IMG/VR virus record: IMGVR_UViG_3300044732_003010
Location: 62,001-88,081 of that record
Length of the DNA: 26,081 nt
Reading direction: 5' to 3' (one strand)
Origin: an uncultured virus (IMG/VR IMGVR_UViG_3300044732_003010)
Lineage: Duplodnaviria > Heunggongvirae > Uroviricota > Caudoviricetes
The translations under genes and the position numbers were made by a program. The notes below the pieces were generated by a model. That model was not told the origin of the DNA. It did not search any database and worked only from the letters and a program-made list of their open reading frames with translations. Shown here in pieces: positions 4,240-19,570 of the stretch. How positions within the stretch are numbered: the stretch's first letter is position 1; every line of letters begins with the position of its first letter.

Positions 4240-4685
4240 ATGACGCAATTAATGCACGGTTAGAGGCAATCGCTAACCCCATTAATTGGGAAGAAATCTA
4301 TTACAAATGGTGTGCATGGGGATTATCTATCGAGGAGTGGGAAGATTGGCCAGACTGGTTAATCCTGAAAAAATATTCAGGGATTCAAAAAGTCAAATGT
4401 GAAGAAATTAATTCACTATCAGGTACGGTTAGTCAGATTGCTGCCATGGTTCACGCCTACCTAATAGCACAATCTAAAGAAAGTTCTAAGTCACAAAGTC
4501 TTAATCCTAGTGATTTTCTGCCTTACCAGTTTAAAGAAAATAAAAAATATTTTCTTGATCAAGAAACCGCTCAAATCCTGTTAGAAGCTATGCAAGCCGG
4601 CCAAGTGCCAGTCTTCGCCACTCAGATAATAGTCGATTGCGGACTATACGACGAAATAATTCAATTAGTAGGGGAGAAAAGCTAA
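4233..4685 (+). CDS. Frameshift extension (gpT-like) of the tail assembly chaperone, giving a G-T fusion 3457-4685
   Basis: RIDDAINARLEAIANPINWEEIYYKWCAWGLS... continues without a stop into ORF 4446-4685; no ATG in the first 71 codons. Confidence 0.8.
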   Translation, partial: RIDDAINARLEAIANPINWEEIYYKWCAWGLSIEEWEDWPDWLILKKYSGIQKVKCEEINSLSGTVSQIAAMVHAYLIAQSKESSKSQSLNPSDFLPYQFKENKKYFLDQETAQILLEAMQAGQVPVFATQIIVDCGLYDEIIQLVGEKS

Positions 4686-7600
4686 TGTCTTTATCACTTG
4701 GTACTTTAGAAATCGGTCTAGGGCTAAATACAGCCCAATATGATAGCGGCATCAAATCGGCTAAAGACCAGCTTTCTTCCCTAGAGCGTCGTGTCACTAA
4801 ACTTGGCACGACTCCACTAAAAATTAAAGTTAGCGTCGATGACCGTCAGCTTTATGGGCTAAATAGTCATTTACTTTTAAAAAGAGTTGACCTTAAAAAG
4901 ACAGTTGATTTTTATAAAGCAAATCCTATTAAAGTATTTGCTGAAGATGACGCATTAGTTTCTCTTAACCAAGAGTTGCGTGAATTAAAAAAAACATCAG
5001 TAGAGATAAGAACACCTTCTAAAATTGTTGTTGAGCATCGGTTTTCTGGGTATCAAGATCGGGTAGAGAAAGCGATTGATCGATCTACTTCTCGAATATC
5101 GTCAGAAATTAGAATATCCTCTAGCAAAGGAGGCGTTGCAGGCGCAATTGGCCGTATTTTAATGTCTCCTTTTAAACTTGCGGGACGAGTTCTTGATGAC
5201 ATGGTTACTGGTTATTTCGAGAAACTAGGTCAATCCTTTGCAGAAGAGATAGGCGTAACATCAGCTAAAAATACAGCTAAAAAAATTAAATCCGCAATAA
5301 CAAAAATTGATGAACAATTAATTGGTAAAAACCAAGTATATGAAACGTTTTTATCGGAATTTTTTAGGTCAGGAAGTATAGAAAAAGCTACACAAGCTTC
5401 TTTTCCTCGCACCGAAGTAGGTAAAACTACAGAAAGACTTCAAAAATTACAAGAAATCGCATTAGTGCCTGCAAATAAACCACTGGAGCGTCTGAGATTA
5501 ATTAAAGAAAATTCTGAGTTAAATAAAATTTATCAACAAGTATTACAAAAAATAGAATCGGAAAATCCTGGTATTAAGCCGCGAGAAGCGGGGAAAAAAG
5601 CCATGGCTCAGTTTTTAGTTGACGCACAGCCACAAACACAAGTATTAAAAGGATTTGTTAATTCTTTTATTCAAGAAATGGCTCCTTTATTAAAATTTAT
5701 ACAAGGGATGAGGTCTTATAGAACATCAGTAGAAAGCCAAAAATATTACAACGAAAGAAAAGCAGGTTTTCCATTACTAAGAGAGGGGGAAGATGTAGTT
5801 AGTGTCATTGGAGGAGCGCAATTTAAGGGAGGTCAGGGTGGCAGACAAGTTGTTCAATCAATTGAATTATTAGCTCCTAATAAACGATTTATTCCTGTAG
5901 AAAATCCTGAAACTGATACTGATAAACAAAACCCTAATCTTTTAGAAAAAATGATTAGGGATAAAATAACTGAGATTGCCCCTGATTTTGCTGCTGGAGA
6001 AACCATAGATACAGCAATTAACGCTTTTCGGCAGGTAGTAAACGCTATTAACCCGTTCGGTTATTCTACGGCCGCAGCGCAAGCAATAGCCAATACCAGA
6101 TTAGCTGAAGAACAGGGTAAAAAAGGCAGTGTTGTTAGCTATTCTTTAGGAGGAGCAGATAACCTTCAGTATGCTCAAACAGCATCATATTTAGGAATGC
6201 AGCCACACGCATTAGCCATGGCTTATCCCTTTCTTAATTTTACTCAAAATACACCTAAAGGATTTAATGCAGCATTACTGAGTGGCGACCCTCTCGGTTT
6301 TGCCAAGTTATTAGGAATTGGAGTCAATACTAACCAATTCCGCTCGATTGAAAGTAATACTCCTTTTGGGCTATCAAATCACCACCAAAAACATTTATTT
6401 AAAGAACAACCTTTTCTAGATTTATTTTATAAGACTATTAATGCTGAACAGCCAGATATGACCCCAGGTCAACAATCAAAAGTTGTTCATGCCGGCGATA
6501 AGCTATATGAAGTATTGGGATCGACTCTACAATTAAAGTCACTTAAAGAAACAGGGGAATTTGATAAGACTCTACCTTATCATAGATTCTTGCAAGGATA
6601 CAGCAGTGGCAGTCCTAACGTAAGCGTAGAAGGATTTATTGCAAAGTTTTTTGAAGGGCTTCGTCTTATATCTTCTTTTGATACAAAAGAATTACAGCCT
6701 GTGTCACAAGCTTTAAAAAGTTTAATGGAACCTTTAATTCCATTTATAGCTAAAAAATTTAGACAAGGGGGTGCAAATTTACCAGAAAATCCTCAAGATT
6801 TTGCCGGGTATCAAAAATATCAACAAGAAGCAAAAAGTATAAACAGAGCATTATTAGAATTTAAATCAGGAAAACTTGCTGATACTCCTAGCTGGTATGC
6901 TGGAAATTTAGAGCCTAATGAAGTTAAAAGACGGACAGAAAAGATTAGAACCGAAACAATACCGTGGTTTACTTCTGAAGAAAGTACGTTTGGGCAAACT
7001 TACACAAAAAAAATTGTTGAAGCATACAAAAAAATAGCTGATGTTGCTGATGAATTTATTAAGACAGGAGGAAAACTATCGCAAAAAACCAAAGACAGTA
7101 TAAAAACTTTTGAAGTTGATGAGTTTTCTGGGGAATTAGCAAGTTTTTTAAATACACGCCTTGACACATCAACACTACCAAAAGAAGAAGAAGTAAGACA
7201 ATTACAGGTTACTGTTCCTGAAATTTTTCTGAAAAAGCAATCAGCTATTTTAGCTTACAACAAACTTCTTAACGCCGTAGGTAAAGAAATTCTTCCTGGT
7301 ATTTCTGAAATCAAAAAAATTGGTGCAGGAATGTCTGGAGCCGTTGCTCTTCTTTCAGATAATCTTGTTTATAAAACTGATCTTGACCCAATAGGAGCGA
7401 CAAAAATTGCGTCAGAAGATGAAATTAAGGCTTATGAGAAATTACAAGGTCGTTTGTCTCCTTTATTGTACAAAGCAGTTCCAGGTCAGGCTTTAATTAC
7501 TGAAAGAACACAAGGTCGTCCTTTAAAAGAAATACTTGATCGAATTGCACGTCCTTACAAAGAAATTCAGCAAAAAATACAGGAAGCTAATAAAGCATTA

Positions 7601-10600
7601 GAGTTAGCCATAGACAACAAAGATGCGACTAAAATCAAAGAGCTAAAAGTATTAACCAAAGAATTACAATCGTCTGCCAAAAAAGAACACAATCGTTTTA
7701 ATAAGGCCGCATCTATTCTATATCAACAAGTAGGACAACTTGGAGCATCCTTACAGGAAATGGGTGTTGTTCATAATGATTTAGCTGCAGCAAATGTATT
7801 TTTTGCACAAGGTGGAATTACTTCAATTGATCTCGGAAATGCAAAGGTTGATCCGACTAGCAGTGATAAATTTAACGATAAAATTACTACTATTCAGCGA
7901 GCAATTATTGATTCTAGCTATTACGGATTGATGGATCCTTTTAAAATAATAGGCGCAGTTCAATCTGGCTACTCAAAACCTTTTGCTACTCAAGTTTCTG
8001 ATTCTAATGCCAGACAAAAATCAGCCATTATCCCTCAGAAAAGAGAAATTAATGAAACTCTTCTTTCCCCTGTAGTAACAGGAAAAGCAATTTCATTAGG
8101 TTCATATACACCAACTTTATTAAAGCAAATCGTTGGTGATTTTTCTTTGCCTACTAAAGAAACTGTTTTCGCAAAAATAGATACTCCCGAACAAAAAAAA
8201 GAACAACCAATTCTAGATAATCAACCACAAAAACTTAATGATTTAGCTGCTACAGCTAAATCAAAATTAGAAGATGTTTTAGCTTCACGACTTGGTACTC
8301 CTGATAAATCGGGAGAAATTCAGCACCTTAGCGGGAATGAAGATTTTGCAGAATTACTACAATTAACTCTTGTAAGAGAATTAAAAACAGCAAGCCTTCT
8401 ACTTTCAAAAGCTTTCCGAGACACATCTCTTGACGTTATTAAATTTGGCCAGGTTGTTTTTACAGTCTTAAAAGCGATCGAGCGTCCAGTAATGGCTTTA
8501 CCTGGTGCTGCAATAGGTAAAAAAGCTATTCAGGTAGGGGGAACGGCTGCTATGGGAGCCGCCGCTCTCCACGCTCTCCCGATGGGGCTAGATGCCACGG
8601 TTGTCAATACTATGCGAGATATTCTTGCAGGGGCGATGAGTGCTGGCGGTCGGGGAATGGTCCAAGCCGTAGCCACACAAATGACTCAAGCTTTTAGCGG
8701 CTTGCCGTTTGGAGTGGGACAACAGCTAACGGAAGCAGTAGTGCAGCTTGTAACCGAAATAACTAACGGCACTATCAGCGTCCTATCGCAGGGGGGAGCA
8801 GTTGCTGGATCGGCGTTAATGGCCGGTGAAGGTGTTAAGAGACTCTTAGGAGCGGCTACCAGTAATGTTCCTAAATTAATTAGCAAAGAAGAACAGCAAA
8901 AAATTGAGGGTAAAACCCAGAAAGCATTAAAAGCGGCAAAGAATAAAGCTGATTCTTTGATTACCACTGAAATAACTCCATATTTCGATGAGAGAGTCTT
9001 CCCAGCAAGTAACCCTATTCCAGCTAACATCAAGGCAATTAACCCAGAATATTACACGGTAAAACAATTACGAGGATTGGCCAGAAATCAGGGAATTGAC
9101 GTACCAGCATCAGGAGCAGGAGCCAGAAAAGAGGAAATATGGAAATCGTTGACTGAAAAATTTAACCCTGATCAGCTAACTCGACTTTTACTAACAACAA
9201 AAGCAAGTGATAGAACAAAATTAGGGAAAAAAGAACTTAGTGGATTCCAGGTTGCATCTACAGAAATTCCTGCTGATTTTACTAAGAGAATTGGCATTGG
9301 CATAAAAAACATTGGTCAAGAAATTAATACTACTAAAGATATCCAATCTTTAGAACGTCTTTATTTTCAATTAGAAAAAGTTAAAAAGGGAATTACAGCG
9401 TTAAGAGCTAATCCTGAATTTAACACAACAAATATTAATAAATCATTAAGTGGCTTTTTACAGTCAGTTGATAATTTACAGACACAAATTCTTGCTAAAG
9501 GTGGTTTGGAGTCAGGGAAAAATCTCAACAAAGGTTTAGCTAAAGGATTAAAAGATACTAGCGCAAGCGACATCGCCTATCAAAACGCTCTTAAAATAGT
9601 AGATCAAATTGATAAAGGGCTGGGAAATGCTTCACCATCTTGGAAGGGGGAAGAATCGGGAGAAAATTTTATTAAAGGTGTGGCAATTGGAATAGAAAAA
9701 GGAATTTCTTCTTTTGATTTTCAGAGTTTAGCTAGTGAAGTTGTTAAAGGATTTGAATCAGGGTTGTCACTTGGCGATATTGAAAAAATTATTCAATCTT
9801 ATTTTGATGTAAATATTCCTAACTTAAAAGATTTAGCTGTTGAAGCGAAAATGATGGGGTGGGAAGGTAAACCAATTGACGGGCTACTAGAAAAAAAATT
9901 AAGCAAATTCCCTCTATCAAAAACTTTTACTCCTGTTGAACCCCCAAAAAATAATATTATTTCTTATCCTACCCCTACACGATTAATTGAATCAAACTTA
10001 CCATCGGAAAATGCGTTAGCTTCTGCTAGTATTAGACTCAAGCAATTATCTAATTTTTACGCTGGACATAAAACAGCTTTTGCAAATCTCAAAGCTATTT
10101 TAACACAAGGAATAGACCCTACTTTTAATCAATGGAGTTTAAGAAGAGACAGATTTGATTTTGAAAAACAAGTTTTCAAAGAACCTGTTGCTTATAGCGC
10201 AATTAACTCTTTTTCCGAACCGATTAAAGGAAATGATTACTATGGCGATGCTGAAATAATGCTCGATATAGCAAAAATTGCCAACCGATCAACATTTACT
10301 AGAGGTGACTCTGGTGCTTTTTGGAGAAATCCAAGCGAGATAATAACAAATCCTTTGTCTAGCTTTACACCAGACCAATACAATCGCAGACCTAATGAGA
10401 TACTTGAATACCTTGAGGTTCAAACTACTGGCAAAATTGATCCGTCTGATTTTTTAGGGATTAATTTAGGCGATATAGAAGAAAAGTACAATATTTATGG
10501 ACGCAAACTCATTGAAGTTATTGCATCTTCTTTAAGTGCTGGCGTTCCAGTATTCGCAAAAAACCTTGAAGCGATTAGTTCGATGTTTTCCAGTGAGGGC

Positions 10601-13600
10601 AGACAGTCTGGGTTAAATTATATCAAGGGGTTAAATATTGGATTACAAAATAATAATAGCGAAAAATACGCTTTAGATGTTGCGATTGGAATTATCGACG
10701 CAACAAATAAAGGGCTGGGAAATGCTTCACCGTCTAAAAAAGCGATGAAAGCAATGCGGTTTTTTTATGAAGGATTAGCGTTAGGGGCGCGTCATATTCG
10801 CTTCGGATTAAGGCTAGAGACTCAATTCGATAAAGAAGTAAGCGATTTTACTTTCTTTGTCGGGACGAGGTCAAAAGAAGCCCGAAAAGCGATCCTTCAA
10901 GCTGTTAAAGAAATGGTAAACCAAGGGGAACGCCTAGCGGCTATTAACGAGATTCAAGGCTCGATGAACACGGGAATTTTCGCTTCTCCCCGCGCTTTTC
11001 AAGTGATGAAGCGAGCTACCGTCATCGCTCGTCCAAAAACAACACGAGAAGAAATTCTTGACGACTGGAATAAAAAACGAGACAACATTTTCAACGCTCT
11101 CGATAGCATTGAAAAAGCGGGCGTTTCTAGTGGTTTTACAAACGGTATCGTAAGCGGACTAAAAGCTGTTATTGCCCAAGCGGACGGATTTATTAATTTC
11201 CTCTCGGTTGGTGGCAAAGCACTCAGAACTCTCGACCAAGAACTTAATGCCGCTACAGGAGGTATGATTAATCTTCGTAAAGGTGCTATAGCGGCAATTG
11301 GGGGATTTGCTCTTTTCAAAGGAGCAGAATTTTTATTACGACCTCTATTTTTTGCTATTTACGATATTCCTTTTAGGATTCAACAAGCTGTTACTGATTC
11401 TTTACTTGCTTTTACTGAGTTACAAAGAATTAAATTAAATTTAAATCTTGCTGGTGTAGGCAATGTAGAACAATCTCTTGACGCTTTAGTGGCAAGGGCT
11501 GACAAATTAGGAATATCCTTTAAAGAATCCGCTATTGCTTATAGCAGATTCAAATTAATTACTACCAATTCTCCACTACAAGCGCAGGCAGATAATATTT
11601 TTGAAGGATTCCAAGAGGCATTATCGGCGCGACAAACCAATGCCCAACAGCAAGCTGAATCTTTTAGAGCTATCGGGCAAATAGCCTCTAAAGCTGTTGT
11701 TTCCGTTGAAGAATTCACGCAGCAATTGAGCGAGTCAGGAGGATTAAACGACGCTTTAAACGTGGCCGCCCGATCAATGGGGTTAACCACTGCTCAATTT
11801 TATCAACAAGCATCAGCAGGCAATCTTTTGGTACAAGATGTTTTACCTCGATTAGCGGCCGAATATGAACGGATGAGTGCCGGAGGTCTTTCTCTCTCTA
11901 CTAAAACTTTACAATCGGAAATCTCTCGATTCCAGAACAATACCGAACAACTTCAAATGCAGTTAGGGGAAAAAATTGGAGTAGTCGCTTACCCTGCTTT
12001 ACAGGCATTAAATGCCGTCTTGAGTACCTTAAATGACAATCTAGGGACGGTGGCATCAGTGGGAGCCGCCGGGTTACTGTCAGTCATGGGATTCTTAGGA
12101 AAATCAGTCATGCAATTTGCGGCAGCGGGTCGGTTAGGAGCCGTTGCCAGTGCTGCTATGAGTGCATCCTTACAATCTGCCGGAGTAGCGTCTCTATCTA
12201 CAGCTACAGCCATGGGTAGATTAAAAGTATCTATAAACCTTGCTACTTTAGCAGGAATAGGATTAATTAAAGCATTGATTATTCCTACTGCGGTGATAAC
12301 TGGTATTCAATTTGTTTATAACGCATTAAATGCTGGTAGCGAAGAACTAAAACAAGCTGTAAGAACCCTAGAAGAGTCTAAAAAAGCTCTTGATGCTTGG
12401 CAAAACAAAACCGATAACAGTAATCGCAAAGGCCTAACAAGCTTTTTGCCTGACATGGAATTGTCTGGAGGAGAAAAGTTTTTTAATGTTATAACATTCG
12501 GGATTGTTTATAATTCTAAATGGCTTATGTCACTATTAGAATTACGACAAGGACTAGAAAACATTGATAAATCTCTGGCTACTGGAGTTGGGAATCTTAA
12601 AGAATATCAAAAAACTTTATCTAATTTTTCAGGTAGCAAGCAATTTTCATCTGAATTACAAGAAATCAGAAATAATTTAGCTTTAGTCAGAGCAGAAAGA
12701 ACAATTGCAAGCGCAAAAGGAAACGACCGATCTGTAGCTGAATTTAACCGGCGAGAGCAGGATTTAATGAAGCAAGAACAGGAGCTAATTAATAAACAGT
12801 TAGGTCCCGTTGGGTCAAGAATTACTGCCGACCTTCAACAATATGAGATGGCGTTAGCATCGTTAGAGCAAAGCTTTAAGAATAGAGATATAACTGACAT
12901 TGCTTACGCGCAACGTAAAAAAGACCTCGTGACTATAATTGGTCAACTAAAAAAAGCGGAACAAGATTATCTACAAGTCTTGAAAGATCAAGAAAAAGAA
13001 TATAGAAAATTACAAGTTGCCTTTGATCTTGCTATAAGAACAAGAGCTAATGCCAATTTTGCTAATGAAGGAAATAGTTTAAGTCGTTCAATTGGATTAA
13101 ATCAACAATTTGCATCAGGGGAAATTAATGAATTTCAGTTTAATGTTAAAGTTCGAGAAGAAAGCTTACAGACTGCTAAAGAGCGTATTGCCACTTTAGG
13201 CAATACAGCTAACTCTATCTCTAATACTTTAAACGAAAGGCTATCTAAATCTGCCAATAAAGTTTTAAGCACTTACTTTAAAGAAGATCTAAAACAGCTA
13301 AATGTAGCGAGCTTTGGTGGAGCAATTGCTGGAAATTTACTCTCTCCTGATGCTATTCAGCAAATAATGGATCAGTATGAATCTGACCTAAAAGATAACG
13401 CTGCTTTAAGATCTATTTTAAATCAGGCTAAAGAATACGCAACTGCTCGACGAGATATTTTAAACACTGAGAAAGAAATTCAGCAAATTAGTCGAGAGAT
13501 TATTGTCGAAAGAAAGAAAAGACAAATACAAGAAAAACAGGCTAGTAAAGAAATTGTTAAAGCAGAACAACTTACTAATCTAGCCAATAAAACCTCCTCC

Positions 13601-16600
13601 AGTCAAAATATTGGCTACGGACTAGAGCAAACCAAAATAAACTTGGCAGCTCTTTATAATCAATTAGCCTTAGAGCAAGAAAAATTAGTATTAAACGTAG
13701 ATGATCCGTTAACGGTCAAAACAGCTATTGCAAATATCACACAGCAAATAGCTGAAACCGAACTATCTTTAAGAGATCAGCAAGAGCAACTACAATACTA
13801 TTACCGCAACCTTGGCCGTCAGATAATCGACTTTAATCGTCAGATTGAAGATTATAGAAGACAGATTGAAGATGCTCAACTGTCAGCTTTTAGAGGAAAT
13901 CGTTCTCTATCTGAAAGTTACACTGATTTAGTCAGGGAACTCGACAAGAAACTCTTAAATGCCCAAAATCAGCTACTGGATGCGACCGATAGAATCAGGG
14001 TACAGCAAGTTAAAAACCGTTTATTAATACCCGGTACAAGCGACGCTGGTAAAGAATTAGGTGACATTTTCCTAGAATTTGTCCAGGGACAAGCTGACCT
14101 TGCCAGTCGCGGTCGCACCTTCCAATCCCGAACCGAGGAGATAGAAACTTCCTATATCTCTACTCTAAGAAATATTCGTAACTTACAAGAGCAACAGCAA
14201 GACGCTGAAAGAAGCCGACTAAGAACGATTGAGGATATTAAACGGACTCAAGAAAACCTTAATCGCACCTTAGCTGACTTAATCCGACAAACCAATAAAG
14301 AATTAGGCTTTATTCCCCAATCAATCAAGGATATTGTCACAAATCTTAATACACTTCCAGAACCAATTAAATTAATCAATTCTGAGTTAGTGGCTATTCC
14401 CCCAAATATTAAGACTTCTGGAGAAGACTTAATAAAAAGTATAGAAGAAACTGCGGAGGCAATTAGAAAAGCTAAGGAAGGTTTGATACTACCAGCACCT
14501 AGTAATTTCACCCCTGCTCCTGTGTGGAATGGGGGAGGGGTTTTACCGCCGCCACCGCCACAGTCGTCTTCAATTCCCAAAGGGTTAACACCACGCGGTC
14601 GAGAATTATCTCAATATTTAAACAATCCTCACGTCAAGGCCTTTCTTGATATTATTGCTTACGCAGAAGGTACTGCCAATATGCCAAATAAGGGATATAA
14701 CACCCTTTTTGGCCATGGACAATTTAGTTCTTTTGCAGACCATCCACGCCAAAGAATTCCGTTTGGATCAACCAGTTCATCGGCATCTGGAAGATACCAG
14801 ATCATGGATTTTACATGGAATGAAGAAAAAGCAAAATTAGGATTAAAAGATTTTTCTCCTGTCTCTCAAGATTTAGTCGCATTAAGTCGTATTTTAATGA
14901 GAGGTGGATTAGACGAGCTTCTTAAGGGAGATATTCGTGGGGCAATTAACGCAACCCGCAAAGAATGGGCATCTTTCCCAGGGGCTAATTACCCAGGGCA
15001 AGGCATGAAACGGATGGAAGACCTGTTAAGGGTTTACGATCAGTCTTTACGAAAATACCAACCAAATGCCCCTCGTACTCAATCCGAACTAGACGCACTG
15101 CGATATGACGGCAATCCTGCTAACAGCGGAGCATCAAACCGTATTCGACAAATCAGAAGAAATCAAGGCGGTTTACCCACTCCATCAACTTCCACCCCTA
15201 ACCCTTCTCCATCAGTTCAGCAACAAATCACCAACAGATTACCAAAAAATATTCAATCTGTTTTAGTTCAAGAAGTTGGCGGAAAAACTGTATATTCTAA
15301 AAATGCTCAAACACCTCCAGCGTCACCAGCTAGTACAATTAAAGTTATTATTGCTGATTTGATTGCCAAAGAAATAACAAGCGGAAAACTTTCCTTAAAA
15401 GATGCTATCGCCATAAAATTGCCTTTGGTTGATCCACACGGACAATTAAAAGCCAATCAAGTTAAAACAGTTGAACAGCTAGTACAGTTAATGCTAGAAA
15501 AGTCAGATAATACGGCAACTAATGTTTTAATTGATCGGCTAGGTGGGCTAACCAAAGCTACAGAATTAGCCAGAAAAGAAGGTTATAAAAACACTACTAT
15601 TTCTAGGTATTTAAATATACCAGGCAGTGGAACTCCAAACATTTCAACAGCACAAGACGTAACGTTAGCTATGCAGTCTTTAATTAAAAATCAAAATCCT
15701 GCAAGTCAATTAGCTGAACAATCTCTAAGACAAACAAGAAATTTTAAGTATAATAATGAAATCGGCGGAAAAATTGGAAATAACTCTAAAGTTATTGGTA
15801 ATGTTGGACTGGTAAACATTAATGGGAAAGAATATATTGTAACTGCTTATGCAAACATTAACGGCAATCAACTAAATAATCGAAAAATAATAACTAATGC
15901 TACTAATGCAATTAGCCAATCCATTAAAGACTCCACCCCTAACCCTTCTCCTGCCCGTGTTTTAACAAAAGAAGAAACAAAAGAAGGAAAAGGTGGACCA
16001 GAATTTAGTAGTCCTCCACCCATAGCTCAGTTACCGACTTTACCTAATCAAAACCGAGATAATTTCTGGGATGCCGATTTACCACCGGTTCTTAAAGACA
16101 ATCCGATTAACTTCCAGAGTCCTAATTTGCCTCCCGTTCCCAATCTTCCTACGGGTAATCTTGGCGCAGCGGCTGATCAAATTCGCAACGCTGAAACAGC
16201 TAATCAAAACGCTGAGGAGTTTTCAAGACGACTAGAAGAGCAACAAAATCTAAACAAGGCTCTTGACAGATCAATGAAATTTAGACGGCAGCAAGAGGAA
16301 GATGCCCGTGCATTAGAACGTACTTTAAGAAATGCTTCCGAAAATGTCGCTGATTTGACTATCAACTCTAAAGGGTATCTGACAGTACAAGAAGAAATTA
16401 ATAAGAGTGCTACAGAAGTCTCTCGTCAATATCGCTCTCAAATTGAATCACTAGAAGACCAGCGACGGACTTTACTTTTAAATGCTGAGGCTCAACAAAA
16501 ATACAGCGACGCGATAAAAGAAATCTTAGGAGAATTTCAAAGAAAAGGTATAGCTCTCCCCCCTGAATTTACCAAAGAAATGATAGATAGTATTGACGCT

Positions 16601-17833
16601 TTAGCTAAACGCGCTGAATTAGCTAAAGAACAGGTAGCAATTCTTGATCAAGCGATTGAACAATTAGGCAAGAATCAGGGAGTAGCCAGCTTAGAAGCAT
16701 CATTTAGAAAAACCAGAGATACAGTCAGGAGTATTCGTGATCGGTTAAATGATTTAACTATCCAAAGAATGAAGTTAGAGAATCAAGCCCGACCGACTTT
16801 ATTTGATGATTCTGCTATCCTTGCCGAACGTATTAGCCTACAAAAAGAAAAAGAGGAACTAGAGGATTATTTAGAACCTTACAAAGACTTACCACAATAC
16901 GCTGAATTTGTGGCTAATATTCGCTCGGAATGGGAAAAACTTGCAGAATTAAGATTAAAACGAGCGGAGTTAAACGCTTCCCCAAATCGTGGCGCAGCTG
17001 AAAGCTTTTTCTCTGATATTAGAGAAGGAAAAGGAATAGGATCGGCTTTTAGTAGTCTTGGATTAAATATCATGACAAAATTTGTTGAGGGTATTACTAA
17101 GCCCGCTATCGATGCTTTAACTTCTGCTATCGATGGATTTACAAAGCCGATTACTCAGGCATTTGAATCAGTATTTAATGCAATCATCGGTCCAGTAGGT
17201 AACTTTTTCACTAATGCCCTCAGTAGCATTTTTAAACCAGTAGGTAACATCTTTTCCTCTATCTTTGGGGGCGGTGGCGGAGGTGGCTTATTTAATGGCT
17301 TACTTAGCGGAATAACAGGGATTTTTAGTGGAGGGATTGGGGGACTTGGTTCGATTGGATCACTTGGTAGTATAGGAGCCTCTAGTTTTGCTTCTGCTCC
17401 GGCTTCTGCCTTTTCTCTAGGTACAGGATTCAGCTTATTTAGTGATGGCGGGAAAGTTGGAGATGCCAATGTTCCGATAGAGAAAAATATCATTTCAGCT
17501 TTTCAGCGCGAACGAGCAATGTCGGGAGGCCGAAAACCTCGCTTGATCGTAGCTAATGAAGACGAATTGGTTCTTAACCCTAAAGAAACAGAAGCATATC
17601 TAGAGTACAGAAATAATGCTCCTATTAAGAACTATGCTAATGGAGGATTTGTCGGGGGTAAGCCTAATTACTCCACAACCTCAAATAACAATAGCTCTAA
17701 TCAGTCTTTGGTAATTAATAACACCAATAACGTGACTGTAGAATCACGGAATGATATGGGGTATAGTTTGAATCAATTGAAAGAACGGGAAAATGCACAA
17801 AATGAACGAACTAAAAAACGATTCTTTGGGTAA
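4685..17833 (+). CDS. Giant multi-domain tape measure protein (~4382 aa) with alpha/beta-hydrolase-like, kinase-like, ART-like, lambda-type lysozyme and PBP/class-A beta-lactamase-like domains
   Basis: N-terminal SLGTLEIGLGLNTAQYDSGI, GLGNASPS motifs, tape-measure core (GQIASKAVVSVEEFTQQLSE...AARSMG ~11400-12100), long coiled coils, position after G/GT; ATG 4685 overlaps the gpT stop (TAATG) with a GGGGAG RBS. Confidence 0.9.
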   Translation: MSLSLGTLEIGLGLNTAQYDSGIKSAKDQLSSLERRVTKLGTTPLKIKVSVDDRQLYGLNSHLLLKRVDLKKTVDFYKANPIKVFAEDDALVSLNQELRELKKTSVEIRTPSKIVVEHRFSGYQDRVEKAIDRSTSRISSEIRISSSKGGVAGAIGRILMSPFKLAGRVLDDMVTGYFEKLGQSFAEEIGVTSAKNTAKKIKSAITKIDEQLIGKNQVYETFLSEFFRSGSIEKATQASFPRTEVGKTTERLQKLQEIALVPANKPLERLRLIKENSELNKIYQQVLQKIESENPGIKPREAGKKAMAQFLVDAQPQTQVLKGFVNSFIQEMAPLLKFIQGMRSYRTSVESQKYYNERKAGFPLLREGEDVVSVIGGAQFKGGQGGRQVVQSIELLAPNKRFIPVENPETDTDKQNPNLLEKMIRDKITEIAPDFAAGETIDTAINAFRQVVNAINPFGYSTAAAQAIANTRLAEEQGKKGSVVSYSLGGADNLQYAQTASYLGMQPHALAMAYPFLNFTQNTPKGFNAALLSGDPLGFAKLLGIGVNTNQFRSIESNTPFGLSNHHQKHLFKEQPFLDLFYKTINAEQPDMTPGQQSKVVHAGDKLYEVLGSTLQLKSLKETGEFDKTLPYHRFLQGYSSGSPNVSVEGFIAKFFEGLRLISSFDTKELQPVSQALKSLMEPLIPFIAKKFRQGGANLPENPQDFAGYQKYQQEAKSINRALLEFKSGKLADTPSWYAGNLEPNEVKRRTEKIRTETIPWFTSEESTFGQTYTKKIVEAYKKIADVADEFIKTGGKLSQKTKDSIKTFEVDEFSGELASFLNTRLDTSTLPKEEEVRQLQVTVPEIFLKKQSAILAYNKLLNAVGKEILPGISEIKKIGAGMSGAVALLSDNLVYKTDLDPIGATKIASEDEIKAYEKLQGRLSPLLYKAVPGQALITERTQGRPLKEILDRIARPYKEIQQKIQEANKALELAIDNKDATKIKELKVLTKELQSSAKKEHNRFNKAASILYQQVGQLGASLQEMGVVHNDLAAANVFFAQGGITSIDLGNAKVDPTSSDKFNDKITTIQRAIIDSSYYGLMDPFKIIGAVQSGYSKPFATQVSDSNARQKSAIIPQKREINETLLSPVVTGKAISLGSYTPTLLKQIVGDFSLPTKETVFAKIDTPEQKKEQPILDNQPQKLNDLAATAKSKLEDVLASRLGTPDKSGEIQHLSGNEDFAELLQLTLVRELKTASLLLSKAFRDTSLDVIKFGQVVFTVLKAIERPVMALPGAAIGKKAIQVGGTAAMGAAALHALPMGLDATVVNTMRDILAGAMSAGGRGMVQAVATQMTQAFSGLPFGVGQQLTEAVVQLVTEITNGTISVLSQGGAVAGSALMAGEGVKRLLGAATSNVPKLISKEEQQKIEGKTQKALKAAKNKADSLITTEITPYFDERVFPASNPIPANIKAINPEYYTVKQLRGLARNQGIDVPASGAGARKEEIWKSLTEKFNPDQLTRLLLTTKASDRTKLGKKELSGFQVASTEIPADFTKRIGIGIKNIGQEINTTKDIQSLERLYFQLEKVKKGITALRANPEFNTTNINKSLSGFLQSVDNLQTQILAKGGLESGKNLNKGLAKGLKDTSASDIAYQNALKIVDQIDKGLGNASPSWKGEESGENFIKGVAIGIEKGISSFDFQSLASEVVKGFESGLSLGDIEKIIQSYFDVNIPNLKDLAVEAKMMGWEGKPIDGLLEKKLSKFPLSKTFTPVEPPKNNIISYPTPTRLIESNLPSENALASASIRLKQLSNFYAGHKTAFANLKAILTQGIDPTFNQWSLRRDRFDFEKQVFKEPVAYSAINSFSEPIKGNDYYGDAEIMLDIAKIANRSTFTRGDSGAFWRNPSEIITNPLSSFTPDQYNRRPNEILEYLEVQTTGKIDPSDFLGINLGDIEEKYNIYGRKLIEVIASSLSAGVPVFAKNLEAISSMFSSEGRQSGLNYIKGLNIGLQNNNSEKYALDVAIGIIDATNKGLGNASPSKKAMKAMRFFYEGLALGARHIRFGLRLETQFDKEVSDFTFFVGTRSKEARKAILQAVKEMVNQGERLAAINEIQGSMNTGIFASPRAFQVMKRATVIARPKTTREEILDDWNKKRDNIFNALDSIEKAGVSSGFTNGIVSGLKAVIAQADGFINFLSVGGKALRTLDQELNAATGGMINLRKGAIAAIGGFALFKGAEFLLRPLFFAIYDIPFRIQQAVTDSLLAFTELQRIKLNLNLAGVGNVEQSLDALVARADKLGISFKESAIAYSRFKLITTNSPLQAQADNIFEGFQEALSARQTNAQQQAESFRAIGQIASKAVVSVEEFTQQLSESGGLNDALNVAARSMGLTTAQFYQQASAGNLLVQDVLPRLAAEYERMSAGGLSLSTKTLQSEISRFQNNTEQLQMQLGEKIGVVAYPALQALNAVLSTLNDNLGTVASVGAAGLLSVMGFLGKSVMQFAAAGRLGAVASAAMSASLQSAGVASLSTATAMGRLKVSINLATLAGIGLIKALIIPTAVITGIQFVYNALNAGSEELKQAVRTLEESKKALDAWQNKTDNSNRKGLTSFLPDMELSGGEKFFNVITFGIVYNSKWLMSLLELRQGLENIDKSLATGVGNLKEYQKTLSNFSGSKQFSSELQEIRNNLALVRAERTIASAKGNDRSVAEFNRREQDLMKQEQELINKQLGPVGSRITADLQQYEMALASLEQSFKNRDITDIAYAQRKKDLVTIIGQLKKAEQDYLQVLKDQEKEYRKLQVAFDLAIRTRANANFANEGNSLSRSIGLNQQFASGEINEFQFNVKVREESLQTAKERIATLGNTANSISNTLNERLSKSANKVLSTYFKEDLKQLNVASFGGAIAGNLLSPDAIQQIMDQYESDLKDNAALRSILNQAKEYATARRDILNTEKEIQQISREIIVERKKRQIQEKQASKEIVKAEQLTNLANKTSSSQNIGYGLEQTKINLAALYNQLALEQEKLVLNVDDPLTVKTAIANITQQIAETELSLRDQQEQLQYYYRNLGRQIIDFNRQIEDYRRQIEDAQLSAFRGNRSLSESYTDLVRELDKKLLNAQNQLLDATDRIRVQQVKNRLLIPGTSDAGKELGDIFLEFVQGQADLASRGRTFQSRTEEIETSYISTLRNIRNLQEQQQDAERSRLRTIEDIKRTQENLNRTLADLIRQTNKELGFIPQSIKDIVTNLNTLPEPIKLINSELVAIPPNIKTSGEDLIKSIEETAEAIRKAKEGLILPAPSNFTPAPVWNGGGVLPPPPPQSSSIPKGLTPRGRELSQYLNNPHVKAFLDIIAYAEGTANMPNKGYNTLFGHGQFSSFADHPRQRIPFGSTSSSASGRYQIMDFTWNEEKAKLGLKDFSPVSQDLVALSRILMRGGLDELLKGDIRGAINATRKEWASFPGANYPGQGMKRMEDLLRVYDQSLRKYQPNAPRTQSELDALRYDGNPANSGASNRIRQIRRNQGGLPTPSTSTPNPSPSVQQQITNRLPKNIQSVLVQEVGGKTVYSKNAQTPPASPASTIKVIIADLIAKEITSGKLSLKDAIAIKLPLVDPHGQLKANQVKTVEQLVQLMLEKSDNTATNVLIDRLGGLTKATELARKEGYKNTTISRYLNIPGSGTPNISTAQDVTLAMQSLIKNQNPASQLAEQSLRQTRNFKYNNEIGGKIGNNSKVIGNVGLVNINGKEYIVTAYANINGNQLNNRKIITNATNAISQSIKDSTPNPSPARVLTKEETKEGKGGPEFSSPPPIAQLPTLPNQNRDNFWDADLPPVLKDNPINFQSPNLPPVPNLPTGNLGAAADQIRNAETANQNAEEFSRRLEEQQNLNKALDRSMKFRRQQEEDARALERTLRNASENVADLTINSKGYLTVQEEINKSATEVSRQYRSQIESLEDQRRTLLLNAEAQQKYSDAIKEILGEFQRKGIALPPEFTKEMIDSIDALAKRAELAKEQVAILDQAIEQLGKNQGVASLEASFRKTRDTVRSIRDRLNDLTIQRMKLENQARPTLFDDSAILAERISLQKEKEELEDYLEPYKDLPQYAEFVANIRSEWEKLAELRLKRAELNASPNRGAAESFFSDIREGKGIGSAFSSLGLNIMTKFVEGITKPAIDALTSAIDGFTKPITQAFESVFNAIIGPVGNFFTNALSSIFKPVGNIFSSIFGGGGGGGLFNGLLSGITGIFSGGIGGLGSIGSLGSIGASSFASAPASAFSLGTGFSLFSDGGKVGDANVPIEKNIISAFQRERAMSGGRKPRLIVANEDELVLNPKETEAYLEYRNNAPIKNYANGGFVGGKPNYSTTSNNNSSNQSLVINNTNNVTVESRNDMGYSLNQLKERENAQNERTKKRFFG
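9612..10731 (+). repeat. 25-bp perfect direct repeat pair (9612-9636 and 10707-10731) inside the tape measure gene
   Basis: ATAAAGGGCTGGGAAATGCTTCACC twice, 1095 bp (365 codons) apart. Confidence 0.9.
15191..15951 (+). repeat. 20-bp perfect direct repeat pair (15191-15210 and 15932-15951) inside the tape measure gene
   Basis: TCCACCCCTAACCCTTCTCC twice, 741 bp (247 codons) apart. Confidence 0.9.
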
Positions 17834-18233
17834 TCAAATTGTTACCGAAGCTCTTGAATGGCTCGGTACTCCTTGGTTTCATGGTCAATCGCTTAAAGGG
17901 ATTGGAACCGATTGTGTAGGATTTATCGCTGGCGTAGGGATTGAAGTCGGATTCTTGCCCCATGATTTCATTATTGAAAACTACGAACGGATTCCCCGGA
18001 ACAATTTCTTAGTGAGATTTATCGAGGGTATCTTGACAAGAGTAGAAGGTAGTCCAGATAAAGGAGATATTTTAGTCTTCCGTAAATCAGGTATAAATGG
18101 TCATGTGGGGATTTATCTGGGAGATGGGGAGTATATTCATGCTGACTCAATAAATGGCGTGATGAAGACCTATATTCATGAATACCCGCCTGCACTAATT
18201 TATCGAGTACCTACTTTAGGAGTGGTAAAATAA
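17793..18233 (+). CDS. NlpC/P60 family tail-associated peptidase
   Basis: WLGTPWFH...GTDCVGFI (catalytic Cys) ...GHVGIYLGDGEYIHA (His, His); start may be 17802. Confidence 0.9.
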   Translation: MHKMNELKNDSLGNQIVTEALEWLGTPWFHGQSLKGIGTDCVGFIAGVGIEVGFLPHDFIIENYERIPRNNFLVRFIEGILTRVEGSPDKGDILVFRKSGINGHVGIYLGDGEYIHADSINGVMKTYIHEYPPALIYRVPTLGVVK

Positions 18234-18629: not shown

Positions 18630-18695
18630 TATGAGCCAAGTTATGAGCCTTTATGAGCCAAGTTATGAGCCTTTATGAGCCAAGTTATGAGCCTT
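18630..18695 (+). repeat. Tandem repeat, 3 x 22 bp (six TATGAGCC cores)
   Basis: TATGAGCCAAGTTATGAGCCTT x3, exact. Confidence 0.95.
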
Positions 18696-19564: not shown

Positions 19565-19570
19565 ACTTCT

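What the first reader, a model, noticed from the sequence alone, without database searches (positions are those of the whole stretch)
4685..17833. Polyvalent 4382-aa tape measure protein carrying about five enzyme-like cargo domains
Seen: alpha/beta-hydrolase-like segment (~5790-6440, SYSLGG elbow, GDP, His); kinase-like domain (~7300-7980); HeH/Rho-N-like motif (~9050-9160); ART-like domain (~10040-10560); lambda-type lysozyme (~14620-15050, AFLDIIAYAEGT, ASGRYQ, EWASFP); PBP-like domain (~15250-15930). Known: tape measure proteins are ejected at infection and often carry muralytic domains, but kinase or ART cargo is more typical of MuF and polyvalent proteins. Inference: the protein is both an envelope-penetration tool and an injected effector platform.
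Basis: partly seen in the sequence, partly recalled or inferred. Interest (0 to 1): 0.75.

Follow-up and report, generated by a model that had tools for sequence, protein, structure and literature searches.

The report
Giant cargo-carrying phage tape measure protein
A probable cyanobacterial virus encodes a real 4382-residue tail tape measure protein that carries cell-wall-cutting enzymes plus a kinase-like and an ADP-ribosyltransferase-like domain, and its relatives swap such enzyme cassettes between repeated linker segments.

Summary
The ORF is real: 4685..17833 (+), 4382 aa, no stop. It lies in an 88-kb viral record, just after a chaperone pair with an A_AAA_AAC -1 frameshift site.

Supported:
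- Tape measure core: PF20155, 48 bits against a cut-off of 41.
- Lambda-type lysozyme: E 1e-26, catalytic Glu aligned.
- PBP-A/class-A-beta-lactamase-like domain: PF13354 E 5e-25; SxxK and SxN kept, KTG reads KIG.

Probable: an atypical kinase. All catalytic motifs are invariant and 11 of 11 homologues hit kinase families, each below cut-off.

Not confirmed: the hydrolase (motif only) and HeH (no profile match).

New here:
- It belongs to a family of at least 51 distinct giant mosaic tape measure proteins.
- A 73-aa linker repeat brackets swappable cassettes. One sister cassette is a Pfam ART-PolyVal domain, E 1e-19.
- The isolated cyanophage CrV-01T has a distant 4416-aa relative.

Injection of the cargo is inferred, not shown. 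I rate it a new variant of a known kind, interest about 0.7.

The parts
3457..4239 (+). Putative tail assembly chaperone (G-like), 260 aa, directly upstream of the tape measure gene
   Evidence: ORF. No family hit. Assigned from position and from the frameshift arrangement.
4227..4233 (+). Slippery heptamer A_AAA_AAC for a -1 programmed frameshift into the frame open from 4182 to 4685 (GT-like extension). Its TAA stop overlaps the tape measure ATG (TAATG).
   Evidence: Read from the sequence and the stop-to-stop frames. The frameshift itself is inferred.
4685..17833 (+). Giant tape measure protein gene, 4382 aa (P0001)
4685..5254 (+). N-terminal anchor, aa 1-190. Matched in 17 of 18 giant relatives, and 29% identical to the N-terminus of the CrV-01T tape measure protein.
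5792..6454 (+). Alpha/beta-hydrolase-like segment, aa ~370-590 (SYSLGG 485-490, Asp535, His566/His570). Unconfirmed.
   Evidence: Invariant residues. Strand-Ser-helix in the model. No profile or fold match. The alternative module of relatives has G-x-S-x-G at the same relative place, and one has a weak LIP hit.
7292..8014 (+). Atypical kinase-like domain, aa ~870-1110: GAGMSGA 880-886, Lys897, HNDLAAAN 1030-1037, IDLG 1048-1051. A helical hairpin is inserted between the lobes.
8228..9484 (+). Module C, aa 1182-1600. It is Gly/Ala-rich and contains the HeH-like pattern at aa 1457-1493 (nt 9053-9163). Shared with most relatives; function unknown.
   Evidence: HeH-type profiles negative.
9485..9703 (+). 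Linker repeat copy 1, aa 1601-1673 (KGLGNASPS motif)
   Evidence: Linker HMM E 4e-34
9704..10579 (+). Swappable cassette, aa 1674-1965. ART-fold core at aa ~1786-1960 (nt 10040-10564), with conserved His1795, Tyr1837, Glu1857 and Glu1911.
10580..10798 (+). Linker repeat copy 2, aa 1966-2038 (KGLGNASPS motif)
   Evidence: Linker HMM E 1e-31
11027..14530 (+). Tape measure core, aa 2115-3282. PF20155 at aa 2250-2426. Hydrophobic segments at 2200-2218, 2431-2472 and 2513-2548. Long stretch rich in E/K/Q/R/L.
14579..15130 (+). Lambda-R-type lysozyme / lytic transglycosylase domain, aa 3299-3482
15191..15940 (+). PBP-A / class-A-beta-lactamase-like serine peptidase domain, aa 3503-3752 (STIK 3550-3553, SDN 3607-3609, KIG 3696-3698)
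15977..17833 (+). Conserved C-terminal region, aa 3765-4382: coiled-coil-like, then a Gly-rich tail. It stays 71-96% identical in the 32 further relatives, whose cores are about 30-45% identical.
17793..18233 (+). NlpC/P60 minor tail protein gene, overlapping the end of the tape measure gene
   Evidence: phrog_329 E 1.6e-14; PF00877 E 2.8e-9

Best explanation
This is a genuine giant tail tape measure protein (TMP) of a siphovirus-type phage, probably a cyanophage. It is built as N-terminal anchor, variable enzyme cargo, 73-aa linker repeats, helical and hydrophobic TMP core, muralytic cassettes, and conserved C-terminus.

Shown:
- The ORF and its tail-module context.
- The TMP core.
- A lambda-type lytic transglycosylase and a PBP-A-like serine peptidase in the C-terminal third.
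- A kinase-like domain with every catalytic motif conserved.
- A cassette whose predicted fold is that of ADP-ribosyltransferases.
- The fact that relatives hold different cassettes in the same linker-flanked slots.

Inferred mechanism:
- As in lambda, T5 and HK97 (recalled knowledge), the TMP fills the tail tube with its C-terminus at the tip and is expelled first on infection.
- The C-terminal glycan-cutting and peptide-cutting domains open the peptidoglycan.
- The hydrophobic core segments help to form the membrane conduit.
- The N-terminal cargo (kinase, ART, possibly an esterase) follows ahead of, or with, the DNA. It modifies host proteins or nucleic acids for take-over or counter-defence, as proposed for head-packaged polyvalent proteins.
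- The linker repeats act as homologous recombination sites, and perhaps as processing sites, that let populations shuffle cargo.
For: ORF and context.

TMP core: PF20155 48 bits (GA 41), phrog_2335 E 1.5e-19, hydrophobic segments.

Lysozyme: E 1e-26 to 1am7, with the catalytic Glu aligned.

PBP-like domain: PF13354 E 4.9e-25, with SxxK and SxN aligned to Tll2115.

Functional equivalence in relatives: the same region holds SLT, M23 or glucosaminidase instead. 21 of the 45 listed TMPs of 2738-5481 aa carry PF13354.

Kinase:
- Invariant G-loop, Lys, HxD...N and DxG in 11 sequences.
- 11 of 11 hit APH, 9 of 11 RIO1, 7 of 11 Pkinase at E <= 1.
- The PDB profile search returned 24 rows; 22 are kinases, including the 14 best.
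- The alternative module of relatives has Pkinase above GA, 38.4 and 35.3 bits against 31.7.

ART:
- Foldseek pdb ranks 1-7 are DarT, SopF and Tpt1, prob 0.99-1.0.
- BFVD gave 24 hits at E <= 0.001, among them a DUF3626 protein of a Nodularia phage and multidomain phage proteins.
- ESM Atlas: 22 of 30 hits are DUF3626 clusters, best score 0.93.
- His, Tyr and Glu are conserved with the only distant homologue.
- A sister cassette is PF18760 ART-PolyVal, E 1.2e-19.

Cassette swapping:
- The linker HMM finds 1-3 copies in each of the 19 giants and 3 in CrV-01T.
- 9 cassette clusters were found.
- The cassette is exactly absent, with one linker left, in L025 and L027.
- The ART part is 99% identical in DNA in 12 of 12 loci, while module C is 90-99%.
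Against: No experiment or proteome shows that the N-terminal 2000 aa stay in the virion or enter the cell.

Three copies of folded 25-35-kDa domains would not fit a tail-tube lumen of about 4 nm (recalled dimension). The cargo must therefore travel unfolded, lie elsewhere, or be removed.

The kinase matches are all below the curated cut-offs, and its model was poor there (pLDDT 28-48 over the N-lobe).

The ART model is only moderate: mean pLDDT 58.7, from 6 sequences of which 5 are near-identical. No sequence profile supports it: phmmer found 0 hits in 1.84 billion proteins, PF12294 found nothing at E <= 10, and the PDB profile search found 0.

The PBP-like third motif is KIG, not K[ST]G.

The hydrolase and HeH assignments failed every profile and fold test.

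The host is not established. One related contig sits in a MAG labelled Methylomonas.
Confidence: 0.68

Rival explanations
1. All cargo serves envelope penetration only. On this view the kinase is a small-molecule or LPS-type kinase (APH, Kdo/WaaP-like), the hydrolase-like part an esterase or lipase, and the ART acts on envelope components. Nothing is meant for the cytoplasm.
For: The best Pfam kinase hits include APH (11 of 11 members) and Kdo/WaaP (8 of 11). The catalytic loop HNDLAAAN lacks the Lys of HRDLKxxN that is typical of eukaryote-like protein kinases (read; the motif comparison is recalled). One relative has a weak lipase (LIP) hit, E 0.008. TMPs are known to work in the envelope (recalled).
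Against: ATP and NAD+ are not expected in the periplasm (general knowledge). The closest ART folds act on nucleic acids or cytoplasmic proteins (DarT, Tpt1, SopF). Relatives carry canonical Pkinase and ART-PolyVal domains, which the literature places among injected cytoplasmic effectors (PMC5512222, passages read).
Confidence: 0.12
2. The N-terminal 2000 aa are made as part of the TMP but are cleaved off during tail assembly. Alternatively they work inside the infected cell late in infection, for example as an assembly scaffold or as a late-expressed enzyme. They are then not delivered to the next host.
For: Lambda gpH is proteolytically processed (recalled). The conserved linker repeats could be cleavage sites. 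Folded domains do not fit the tube lumen.
Against: The conserved N-terminal 190 aa lie upstream of the cargo and are shared with CrV-01T and 17 of the 18 relatives. The cargo is therefore inserted inside the TMP, not appended. Cassette diversity at population level is the pattern expected of conflict effectors.
Confidence: 0.1
3. The cargo region is mainly a length spacer for a very long tail. The enzyme-like folds would then be decayed relics without activity.
For: TMP length sets tail length (recalled). CrV-01T, an isolated long-tailed siphovirus, has a 4416-aa TMP with no Pfam domain other than TMP_3. Most cassettes have no recognisable family.
Against: The catalytic residues of the kinase, lysozyme, PBP-like and ART-like domains are conserved down to 26-40% identity. 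Relatives replace one enzyme class by another of the same class.
Confidence: 0.08
4. The ORF is an assembly chimera or a fusion artefact.
For: The record is a metagenome-derived contig, and the gene contains internal repeats.
Against: The two linker copies are too diverged to register in a BLASTP self-comparison at E <= 0.01, so they are unlikely to confuse an assembler. The same junctions recur on 9 other contigs. 51 distinct giant homologues from several sources exist. An isolated phage genome has a 4416-aa homologue.
Confidence: 0.01

Closest known systems
Tape measure proteins with embedded muralytic domains (phage T5 pb2 with a peptidase motif, mycobacteriophage TM4 TMP with an Rpf-like motif, lambda gpH; recalled, not read here)
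   Same: The gene sits after a frameshifted chaperone pair. It has a TMP_3 core, hydrophobic segments, and peptidoglycan-cutting domains inside the TMP.
   Different: It has two muralytic domains, one of them PBP-A-like. It also has about 2000 aa of non-muralytic cargo (kinase-like, ART-fold) inserted between the N-terminal anchor and the core, bracketed by linker repeats.
Polyvalent proteins of phages and conjugative elements (Iyer et al. 2017, PMC5512222; passages read)
   Same: Several unrelated enzymatic domains (kinase, ART, peptidoglycan enzymes) lie in one virion-associated polypeptide. Cassette-like variability is seen. A sister cassette in relatives is Pfam ART-PolyVal, E 1.2e-19.
   Different: In the passages read, the carriers are head proteins (MuF, portal) and packaging is into the head. 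'Tape measure' occurs 0 times in the main text. Here the carrier is the tail tape measure. The kinase keeps its C-lobe motifs, whereas the polyvalent-protein kinase clade is described there as lacking the C-terminal subdomain.
Tme, the tapemeasure-related effector of Streptomyces davawensis contractile injection systems (PMC11126660; abstract and passages read)
   Same: It is a large TMP-like protein with transmembrane helices and coiled coils. It carries a non-muralytic enzyme domain and is loaded in a tail-like particle.
   Different: Tme belongs to a bacterial injection system, not a phage. It has one C-terminal endonuclease, whereas this protein has N-terminal kinase and ART cargo with swappable linker-flanked cassettes.
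Tape measure protein CrV_gp064 of Cylindrospermopsis raciborskii virus CrV-01T (MH636380.1)
   Same: It is 4416 aa with TMP_3 near residue 2000. Its N-terminus (29%), core (23%) and C-terminus (29%) are homologous, and it has 3 linker-repeat copies.
   Different: No kinase loop was found by a simple pattern, and there is no Pfam domain other than TMP_3. It shares none of this protein's cargo modules.
DarT / Tpt1 (KptA) / DUF3626 branch of the ART superfamily
   Different: There is no detectable sequence-profile match. The domain is embedded in a TMP. Substrate is unknown.

Membership tests
Phage tail tape measure protein (Pfam TMP_3 PF20155 / phrog_2335) | Profile match above the curated cut-off | tested here: met
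   PF20155 48.0 bits against GA 41, aa 2250-2426; phrog_2335 E 1.5e-19, aa 2159-2860
Phage tail tape measure protein (Pfam TMP_3 PF20155 / phrog_2335) | Gene lies after a chaperone pair with a -1 frameshift and before distal or minor tail genes | tested here: met
   A_AAA_AAC at 4227-4233 joins ORF 3457-4239 to frame 4182-4685, which ends at the ATG. An NlpC/P60 minor tail gene follows. The frameshift itself is inferred.
Phage tail tape measure protein (Pfam TMP_3 PF20155 / phrog_2335) | Protein length sets tail length | not testable with these tools
   No particle images of this phage exist. Full length x 0.15 nm would give about 657 nm (inference).
Lambda-type lysozyme (lytic transglycosylase, lambda R, PDB 1am7) | Sequence similarity over the whole domain, with the catalytic Glu conserved | tested here: met
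   E 1.3e-26, aa 3313-3449 against chain residues 5-144. The Glu of AYAEGT aligns with the Glu of WSEGT. That this Glu is catalytic is recalled.
PBP-A / class A beta-lactamase-like serine peptidases (Pfam PF13354) | Profile match above cut-off, with the SxxK and SxN motifs | tested here: met
   88.6 bits against GA 22. STIK and SDN align with those of Tll2115.
PBP-A / class A beta-lactamase-like serine peptidases (Pfam PF13354) | Third motif K[ST]G | tested here: not met
   It reads K-I-G (aa 3696-3698) where Tll2115 has KTG. Lys and Gly are kept.
Class A beta-lactamase proper (NCBIfam NF033103) | Score above the equivalog cut-off | tested here: not met
   48.6 bits against a cut-off of 200. 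It should not be called a beta-lactamase or a resistance gene.
Protein-kinase-like superfamily (Bud32/RIO/APH-like) | Profile match above the curated cut-off | tested here: not met
   Best values: Kinase-like 21.2 bits (GA 25), RIO1 18.6 (22), APH 18.5 (23.2), Bud32 24.8 (125). All the weak hits are nevertheless kinases, and 11 of 11 family members hit APH.
Protein-kinase-like superfamily (Bud32/RIO/APH-like) | Gly-rich loop, beta-3 Lys, HxD...N catalytic loop, DxG metal-binding motif | tested here: met
   GAGMSGA 880-886, Lys897, HNDLAAAN 1030-1037 and IDLG 1048-1051 are invariant in 11 sequences.
Protein-kinase-like superfamily (Bud32/RIO/APH-like) | Bilobal kinase fold | tested here: inconclusive
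   The model of aa 191-1180 has pLDDT 28-48 over the N-lobe. Fold searches returned only helical hairpins.
ADP-ribosyltransferase superfamily (DarT / Tpt1 / DUF3626-like) | ART fold | tested here: met
ADP-ribosyltransferase superfamily (DarT / Tpt1 / DUF3626-like) | Sequence-profile membership (PF12294 DUF3626 or another ART family) | tested here: not met
   PF12294 gave no match at E <= 10, though its control rang nowhere either. Pfam gave 0 families at E <= 5. phmmer gave 0 hits in 1.84 billion proteins. The PDB profile search gave 0. Only the ESM Atlas features point to DUF3626, score 0.93.
ADP-ribosyltransferase superfamily (DarT / Tpt1 / DUF3626-like) | Conserved NAD-site residues (H-Y-E type) | tested here: inconclusive
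   His1795, Tyr1837, Glu1857 and Glu1911 are conserved with the single distant homologue, 30% identical over the aligned cassette and 26% in the BLAST alignment. Which Glu would be catalytic was not resolved.
Alpha/beta-hydrolase fold | Nucleophile elbow with an ordered Ser-Asp-His triad | tested here: inconclusive
   S-x-S-x-G (SYSLG), Asp535, His566 and His570 are invariant. Ser487 lies between a predicted strand and helix. About 200 other columns are invariant too.
Alpha/beta-hydrolase fold | Profile or fold match | tested here: inconclusive
   None in Pfam, the PDB profile search, the ESM Atlas, Foldseek, VIA-align or the short-homologue search. The domain was never folded alone.
HeH / SAP / Rho_N DNA-binding motif | Profile match | tested here: inconclusive
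   PF07498, PF02037 and PF12949 gave no match at E <= 10 in the record. The sequence pattern is visible at aa 1457-1493.
Polyvalent proteins (Iyer et al. 2017) | Several domains of disparate biochemical activity in one polypeptide of a phage or conjugative element, encoded among virion genes | tested here: met
   Lysozyme, PBP-like, kinase-like and ART-fold domains lie in one ORF of a tail module.
Polyvalent proteins (Iyer et al. 2017) | Carrier or anchor of the described kind (MuF, portal, relaxase and others), packaged into the head | tested here: not met
   The carrier here is a tape measure protein. No MuF or portal domain was found in the ORF. The paper's main text never mentions tape measure.

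The most novel reading that the evidence does not exclude
The tail tape measure is used as a threaded, modular effector string. This would be a phage counterpart of polymorphic toxins or of effectors loaded in contractile injection systems. Enzymes for host take-over (kinase, two kinds of ART, and at least seven cassette types with no Pfam match) would be carried unfolded in the tail lumen and pushed into the cell ahead of the DNA. They would be diversified at population level by recombination between conserved 73-aa linker repeats, which may also be processing sites. This would be a second route for protein injection by siphoviruses, independent of the head.
Probability: 0.35. Interest if true: 0.85.

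Novelty: new variant of a known kind. Interest (0 to 1): 0.7.

Why it matters
If the cargo is delivered, the tape measure is more than a ruler and a wall-opener. It would be a programmable protein-injection vehicle of long-tailed phages, probably those of bloom-forming cyanobacteria.

The linker-flanked cassettes give a natural catalogue of early-infection effectors. Nine types were seen here, and most have no recognisable family.

They also suggest a simple design rule: swap what lies between two linkers.

The family raises a concrete physical question: how is a polypeptide of more than 4000 residues, with several foldable domains, stored in and expelled from a tail tube? An isolated relative, CrV-01T, exists in which proteomics and cryo-EM could address this.

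Tried and rejected
Fold searches with the 990-residue model of aa 191-1180 (mean pLDDT 61.3):
- Foldseek pdb gave nothing at E <= 0.001.
- VIA-align wide gave only helical hairpins over model residues 748-888.
- Neither the hydrolase nor the kinase fold could be judged from them.

Hydrolase region:
- ESM Atlas on aa 340-640: no usable hit.
- The search for homologous proteins with alignment A1, shorter proteins: 7134 candidates, none at E <= 0.01.
- hhalign of module B against the alternative module B of relatives: probability 42%, E 2.7e-4. This is too weak to transfer the Pkinase annotation.

ART cassette:
- phmmer against 1.84 billion representatives: 0 hits.
- PDB profile search: 0 hits.
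- PF12294 in the record: no match, and the control genomes did not ring either, so this test is uninformative.

HeH motif: Rho_N, SAP and HeH profiles gave no match at E <= 10.

A silent cassette reservoir elsewhere in the 88-kb record: none found. No linker or cassette copy lies outside the gene.

Host inference:
- Large terminase and the tail protein gave only matches to isolates at 44% identity or less, on unrelated hosts.
- The single hit in genome contigs is a 10.6-kb contig of a MAG labelled Methylomonas. I take this as weak evidence, possibly mis-binned, because flanking genes are 70% and 94.6% identical to Microcystis phage genes.

Pfam on six other cassette types and on the relatives' alternative N-terminal module: only ART-PolyVal and Pkinase were recognised.

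Literature searches for a tape measure protein fused to a kinase or an ART found no such report. This covers only the open-access library that was searched.
Full report
**1. The observation**

The window is the last 26 kb (62001-88081) of an 88,081-bp IMG/VR virus record, rated 100% complete by CheckV. One frame is open from 4637 to 17833.

The gene is not an assembly artefact:
- 18 further proteins of 2577-5481 aa share its modules.
- IMG/VR holds 15 and 29 related loci for its two N-terminal thirds.
- The linker-cassette-linker junctions recur at 98-100% amino-acid identity on 9 other contigs, one of them cut 11 residues into the query.
- The two internal linker copies are too diverged even to register in a BLASTP self-comparison.

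**2. Context**

- Upstream lie a Neck1/tail-completion gene (phrog_5) and unassigned small ORFs.
- ORF 3457-4239 ends ...GAA AAA AAC GAA TAG. The heptamer A_AAA_AAC at 4227-4233 allows a -1 slip into a frame that is open from 4182 to 4685. That frame's TAA overlaps the tape measure ATG.
- This is the classical G/GT chaperone arrangement ahead of a tape measure gene. The arrangement is recalled knowledge and the frameshift itself is inferred.
- Downstream follow an NlpC/P60 minor tail protein (phrog_329, PF00877), then an insertion with Rha, TnpB and HTH genes, then a large tail protein (phrog_4271, E 1e-90).
- The rest of the record encodes large terminase, helicase, primase, ribonucleotide reductase, a thymidylate-synthase-like protein and methyltransferases.
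- No tail sheath family appeared in those scans, which fits a siphovirus.

**3. What the domains are**

*Firm:*
- Tape measure core: PF20155, 48 bits against GA 41, aa 2250-2426; phrog_2335 aa 2159-2860. Hydrophobic segments lie at 2200-2218, 2431-2472 and 2513-2548.
- Lambda-R-type lysozyme: phrog_90 E 4.5e-38; 1am7 E 1.3e-26. The Glu of AYAEGT aligns with the Glu of WSEGT.
- PBP-A-like serine peptidase: PF13354 E 4.9e-25. The best solved relative is Tll2115 of Thermosynechococcus, E 7e-12. STIK and SDN are aligned, but the third motif is KIG rather than KTG.
- This last domain is far below the NCBIfam class A beta-lactamase cut-off (48.6 against 200 bits). It should not be read as a resistance gene.

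*Probable: an atypical kinase at aa ~870-1110.*
- No profile reaches its curated cut-off, but every weak hit is a kinase: Kinase-like, RIO1, APH, Kdo, Pkinase, Bud32.
- A profile of 11 homologues against the PDB returned 24 rows. 22 are kinases, including the 14 best; the best is Bud32, E 0.0016.
- 11 of 11 homologues hit APH, 9 of 11 RIO1 and 7 of 11 Pkinase at E <= 1.
- The Gly-loop, Lys897, His1030/Asp1032/Asn1037 and Asp1049-x-Gly1051 are invariant down to 40% identity.
- The structure model was poor there and shows a helical hairpin inserted between the lobes.

*Supported at fold level: an ART domain at aa ~1786-1960.*
- Sequence methods found nothing. Pfam gave 0 families. phmmer gave 0 hits at E <= 0.001 among 1.84 billion representatives. 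The PDB profile search gave 0. PF12294 gave no match, but its control was silent too.
- The ESM Atlas put DUF3626 clusters first (score 0.93; 22 of 30 hits), with an OspC family cluster at 0.88.
- The AlphaFold model came from 6 sequences, 5 of them near-identical, with mean pLDDT 58.7.
- Foldseek pdb ranks 1-7 are DarT, SopF and Tpt1, E 0.002-0.017 and prob 0.99-1.0.
- BFVD gave 24 hits at E <= 0.001. They include a DUF3626 protein of a Nodularia phage, a 'minor capsid protein' and large multidomain phage proteins.
- His1795, Tyr1837, Glu1857 and Glu1911 are conserved with the only distant homologue, P0019, at 26-30% identity.

*Not confirmed:*
- Hydrolase-like segment. SYSLGG, Asp535 and His566/His570 are invariant, and Ser487 sits between a predicted strand and helix. 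No profile, Atlas or fold match was found.
- A small point in its favour: the non-orthologous N-terminal module of four relatives has a canonical G-x-S-x-G elbow at the same relative position, and one of them gives a weak lipase (LIP) hit, E 0.008.
- HeH-like pattern. It is visible at aa 1457-1493, but Rho_N, SAP and HeH profiles find nothing at E <= 10.

**4. The family and its mosaic**

BLAST of the 18 relatives against P0001 splits the protein into modules:

| Module | Residues | Distribution among relatives |
|---|---|---|
| N-terminal anchor | 1-190 | matched in 17 of 18 |
| Module B (hydrolase-like + kinase-like) | 190-1180 | 12 of 18, at 37-98% identity |
| Module C | 1182-1600 | most relatives |
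| Linker 1 | 1601-1673 | see the linker paragraph below |
| Cassette (ART fold) | 1674-1965 | 4 of 18 (three at 98-99%, one remote at 26%) |
| Linker 2 | 1966-2038 | see the linker paragraph below |
| Connector | 2039-2114 | 76-77 aa, 24 copies clustered |
| TMP core | 2115-~3280 | all |
| Lysozyme | ~3283-3487 | replaced in some relatives |
| PBP-like | ~3505-3753 | absent or replaced in some relatives |
| C-terminus | 3765-4382 | all |

Variation between relatives:
- Four relatives replace module B by an unrelated or very diverged one. In three of them it carries canonical Pkinase: P0016 35.3 bits and the P0007-like locus 38.4 bits, against GA 31.7.
- The muralytic slots hold SLT, peptidase M23 or glucosaminidase in other members. 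A glycan-cutter plus a peptide-cutter therefore appears to be the conserved function. This supports a DD-peptidase role for the PBP-like domain (inference).

The linker repeat:
- An HMM of the 73-aa linker (motif KGLGNASPS) finds 1-3 copies in each of the 19 giants.
- What follows a linker falls into 9 cassette clusters of 160-668 aa, plus the 76-77-aa connector to the core.
- Two loci (L025, L027) lack the cassette exactly, with a single linker left.
- Others carry two or three cassettes in series.
- One sister cassette (272 aa; L006, L011, L026) is PF18760 'ART in polyvalent proteins', E 1.2e-19, 71.9 bits against GA 31.2.
- The other cassette types tested have no Pfam match.
- At DNA level the ART part is 99% identical in 12 of 12 loci, while the adjoining module C is 90-99% and the linkers 92-99%. 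This fits recent exchange or strong constraint.
- No linker or cassette copy lies elsewhere in the record.

The wider family:
- A search with the core found 45 proteins of 2738-5481 aa at E <= 1e-5. Together that makes 51 distinct proteins, this one included.
- 21 of the 45 have PF13354 and 3 of 45 have Pkinase.
- 30 of the 32 new ones have one linker just before the core.
- Their C-terminal ~620 aa are 71-96% identical to P0001, although their cores are only about 30-45% identical.
- The isolated siphovirus CrV-01T (Cylindrospermopsis raciborskii virus) has a 4416-aa tape measure protein. TMP_3 lies at residues 1977-2123. Its N-terminus, core and C-terminus are homologous, and it has 3 linker copies with E 6e-15 to 1e-5.

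**5. Host**

The host is not established. Pointers to cyanobacteria:
- The CrV-01T relative.
- Tape measure matches to Microcystis and Synechococcus siphoviruses.
- The PBP-A relative from Thermosynechococcus.
- Two flanking genes that are 70% and 94.6% identical to genes of Microcystis phages Ma-LMM01, MaMV-DC and Mic1.

Against this, the only genome-contig hit is a 10.6-kb contig in a MAG labelled Methylomonas. Large terminase and the tail protein are uninformative.

**6. Mechanism**

*Shown:* the domain content, its order, the conservation of catalytic residues, and the modular exchange.

*Inferred from established tape measure biology (lambda gpH, T5 pb2, HK97; recalled) and from passages read in PMC11126660 and PMC7824862:*
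- The protein occupies the tail lumen with its C-terminus at the tip complex and is expelled on receptor binding.
- The lysozyme and the PBP-like peptidase, which lie in the C-terminal third, meet the peptidoglycan first.
- The hydrophobic core segments take part in the membrane conduit.
- The N-terminal cargo leaves last, next to the DNA.

For the cargo I favour cytoplasmic action on host proteins or nucleic acids, for three reasons:
- Kinases and ARTs need ATP and NAD+.
- The nearest ART folds act on DNA, RNA or cytoplasmic proteins.
- Relatives carry Pkinase and ART-PolyVal domains. Iyer et al. (PMC5512222; passages read) describe such domains in proteins injected early in infection.

The weak point is physical. 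Folded domains of 25-35 kDa in three copies should not fit a tube lumen of about 4 nm (recalled). The cargo must travel unfolded, be processed, or sit elsewhere.

The conserved linkers are candidates for recombination sites (supported) and for processing or docking sites (pure inference).

**7. Comparison with what is known, and novelty**

- Tape measure proteins with muralytic motifs are known (recalled).
- Polyvalent proteins are known, but in the passages read their carriers are head proteins (MuF, portal). The main text of PMC5512222 contains 'tape measure' 0 times.
- A TMP-related effector with a nuclease domain is known from a bacterial contractile injection system (PMC11126660).
- Five full-text searches found no report of a phage tape measure protein fused to a kinase or an ART. 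The two CrV-01T papers in which I searched the text do not discuss its giant tape measure protein. This covers only the open library searched.
- I could not see Martin et al. 2019 or Steenhauer et al. 2016, which may give CrV's tail length.

I therefore rate this a new variant of a known kind. Polyvalent-type cargo sits on a tape measure chassis, with linker-bracketed swappable cassettes, in a family of at least 51 giant proteins.

**8. Verdict**

The ORF, the lysozyme and the PBP-like domain are firm. The kinase is probable. The ART is supported at fold level. The hydrolase and HeH remain unproven.
- Confidence in the best explanation is 0.68. Interest is 0.7.

Noticed in passing
window 3457-4685: G/GT-like chaperone pair. 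ORF 3457-4239 has the slippery heptamer A_AAA_AAC at 4227-4233. An overlapping -1 frame is open from 4182 to 4685, and its stop overlaps the tape measure start (TAATG). Neither part matches any PHROG or Pfam family.
   Followed up: partly
window 18675-23120: The tail module is interrupted by a Rha-like regulator (18675-19010), a 567-aa TnpB / IS605 OrfB-type gene (19613-21316; PF01385 and PF07282) and an HTH protein (22677-23120). CrV-01T also has an IS605 OrfB transposase, about 1.6 kb upstream of its giant tape measure gene.
   Followed up: no
window 25693-26079 and 435-1070: The 3'-open ORF at 25693 is 94.6% identical in protein to a hypothetical gene of Microcystis myoviruses (Ma-LMM01, MaMV-DC). 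The FGE-sulfatase-like ORF 435-1070 is 70% identical to a gene annotated as 'kinase' in the same phages and 60% to one in Mic1. This suggests gene exchange among Microcystis-associated phages and gives a host pointer.
   Followed up: partly
P0020-P0049 compared with window 15977-17833: The C-terminal ~620 aa of the tape measure protein are 71-96% identical across lineages whose cores are only about 30-45% identical. The tip-proximal end therefore seems to be exchanged, or constrained, separately from the ruler part.
   Followed up: partly
L045 (genome contigs): A 10.6-kb contig carrying an 83%-identical N-terminal part of this tape measure protein is binned in a MAG labelled Methylomonas sp. 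This is either a mis-binned viral contig or a hint at a different host.
   Followed up: no
G000:C1 1599-2436 and 53578-53961: Three paralogous small ORFs of the same unknown family (phrog_23556, E 3e-47, 3e-36 and 2e-23) are scattered in the record.
   Followed up: no
window 9614-9640 and 10709-10735: The linker motif KGLGNASPS resembles a '...SPS[KR]...' motif that I recall from tape measure proteins of Gram-positive phages. Copy 1 gave a weak hit to Pfam DUF5610, E 2.4e-4, below the cut-off. I did not test whether this linker is a general tape measure module.
   Followed up: no
window 6395-7174 (aa ~570-830): A well-predicted (pLDDT 70-91) all-helical domain lies between the hydrolase-like and kinase-like parts and has no family match. 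It was not searched alone.
   Followed up: no
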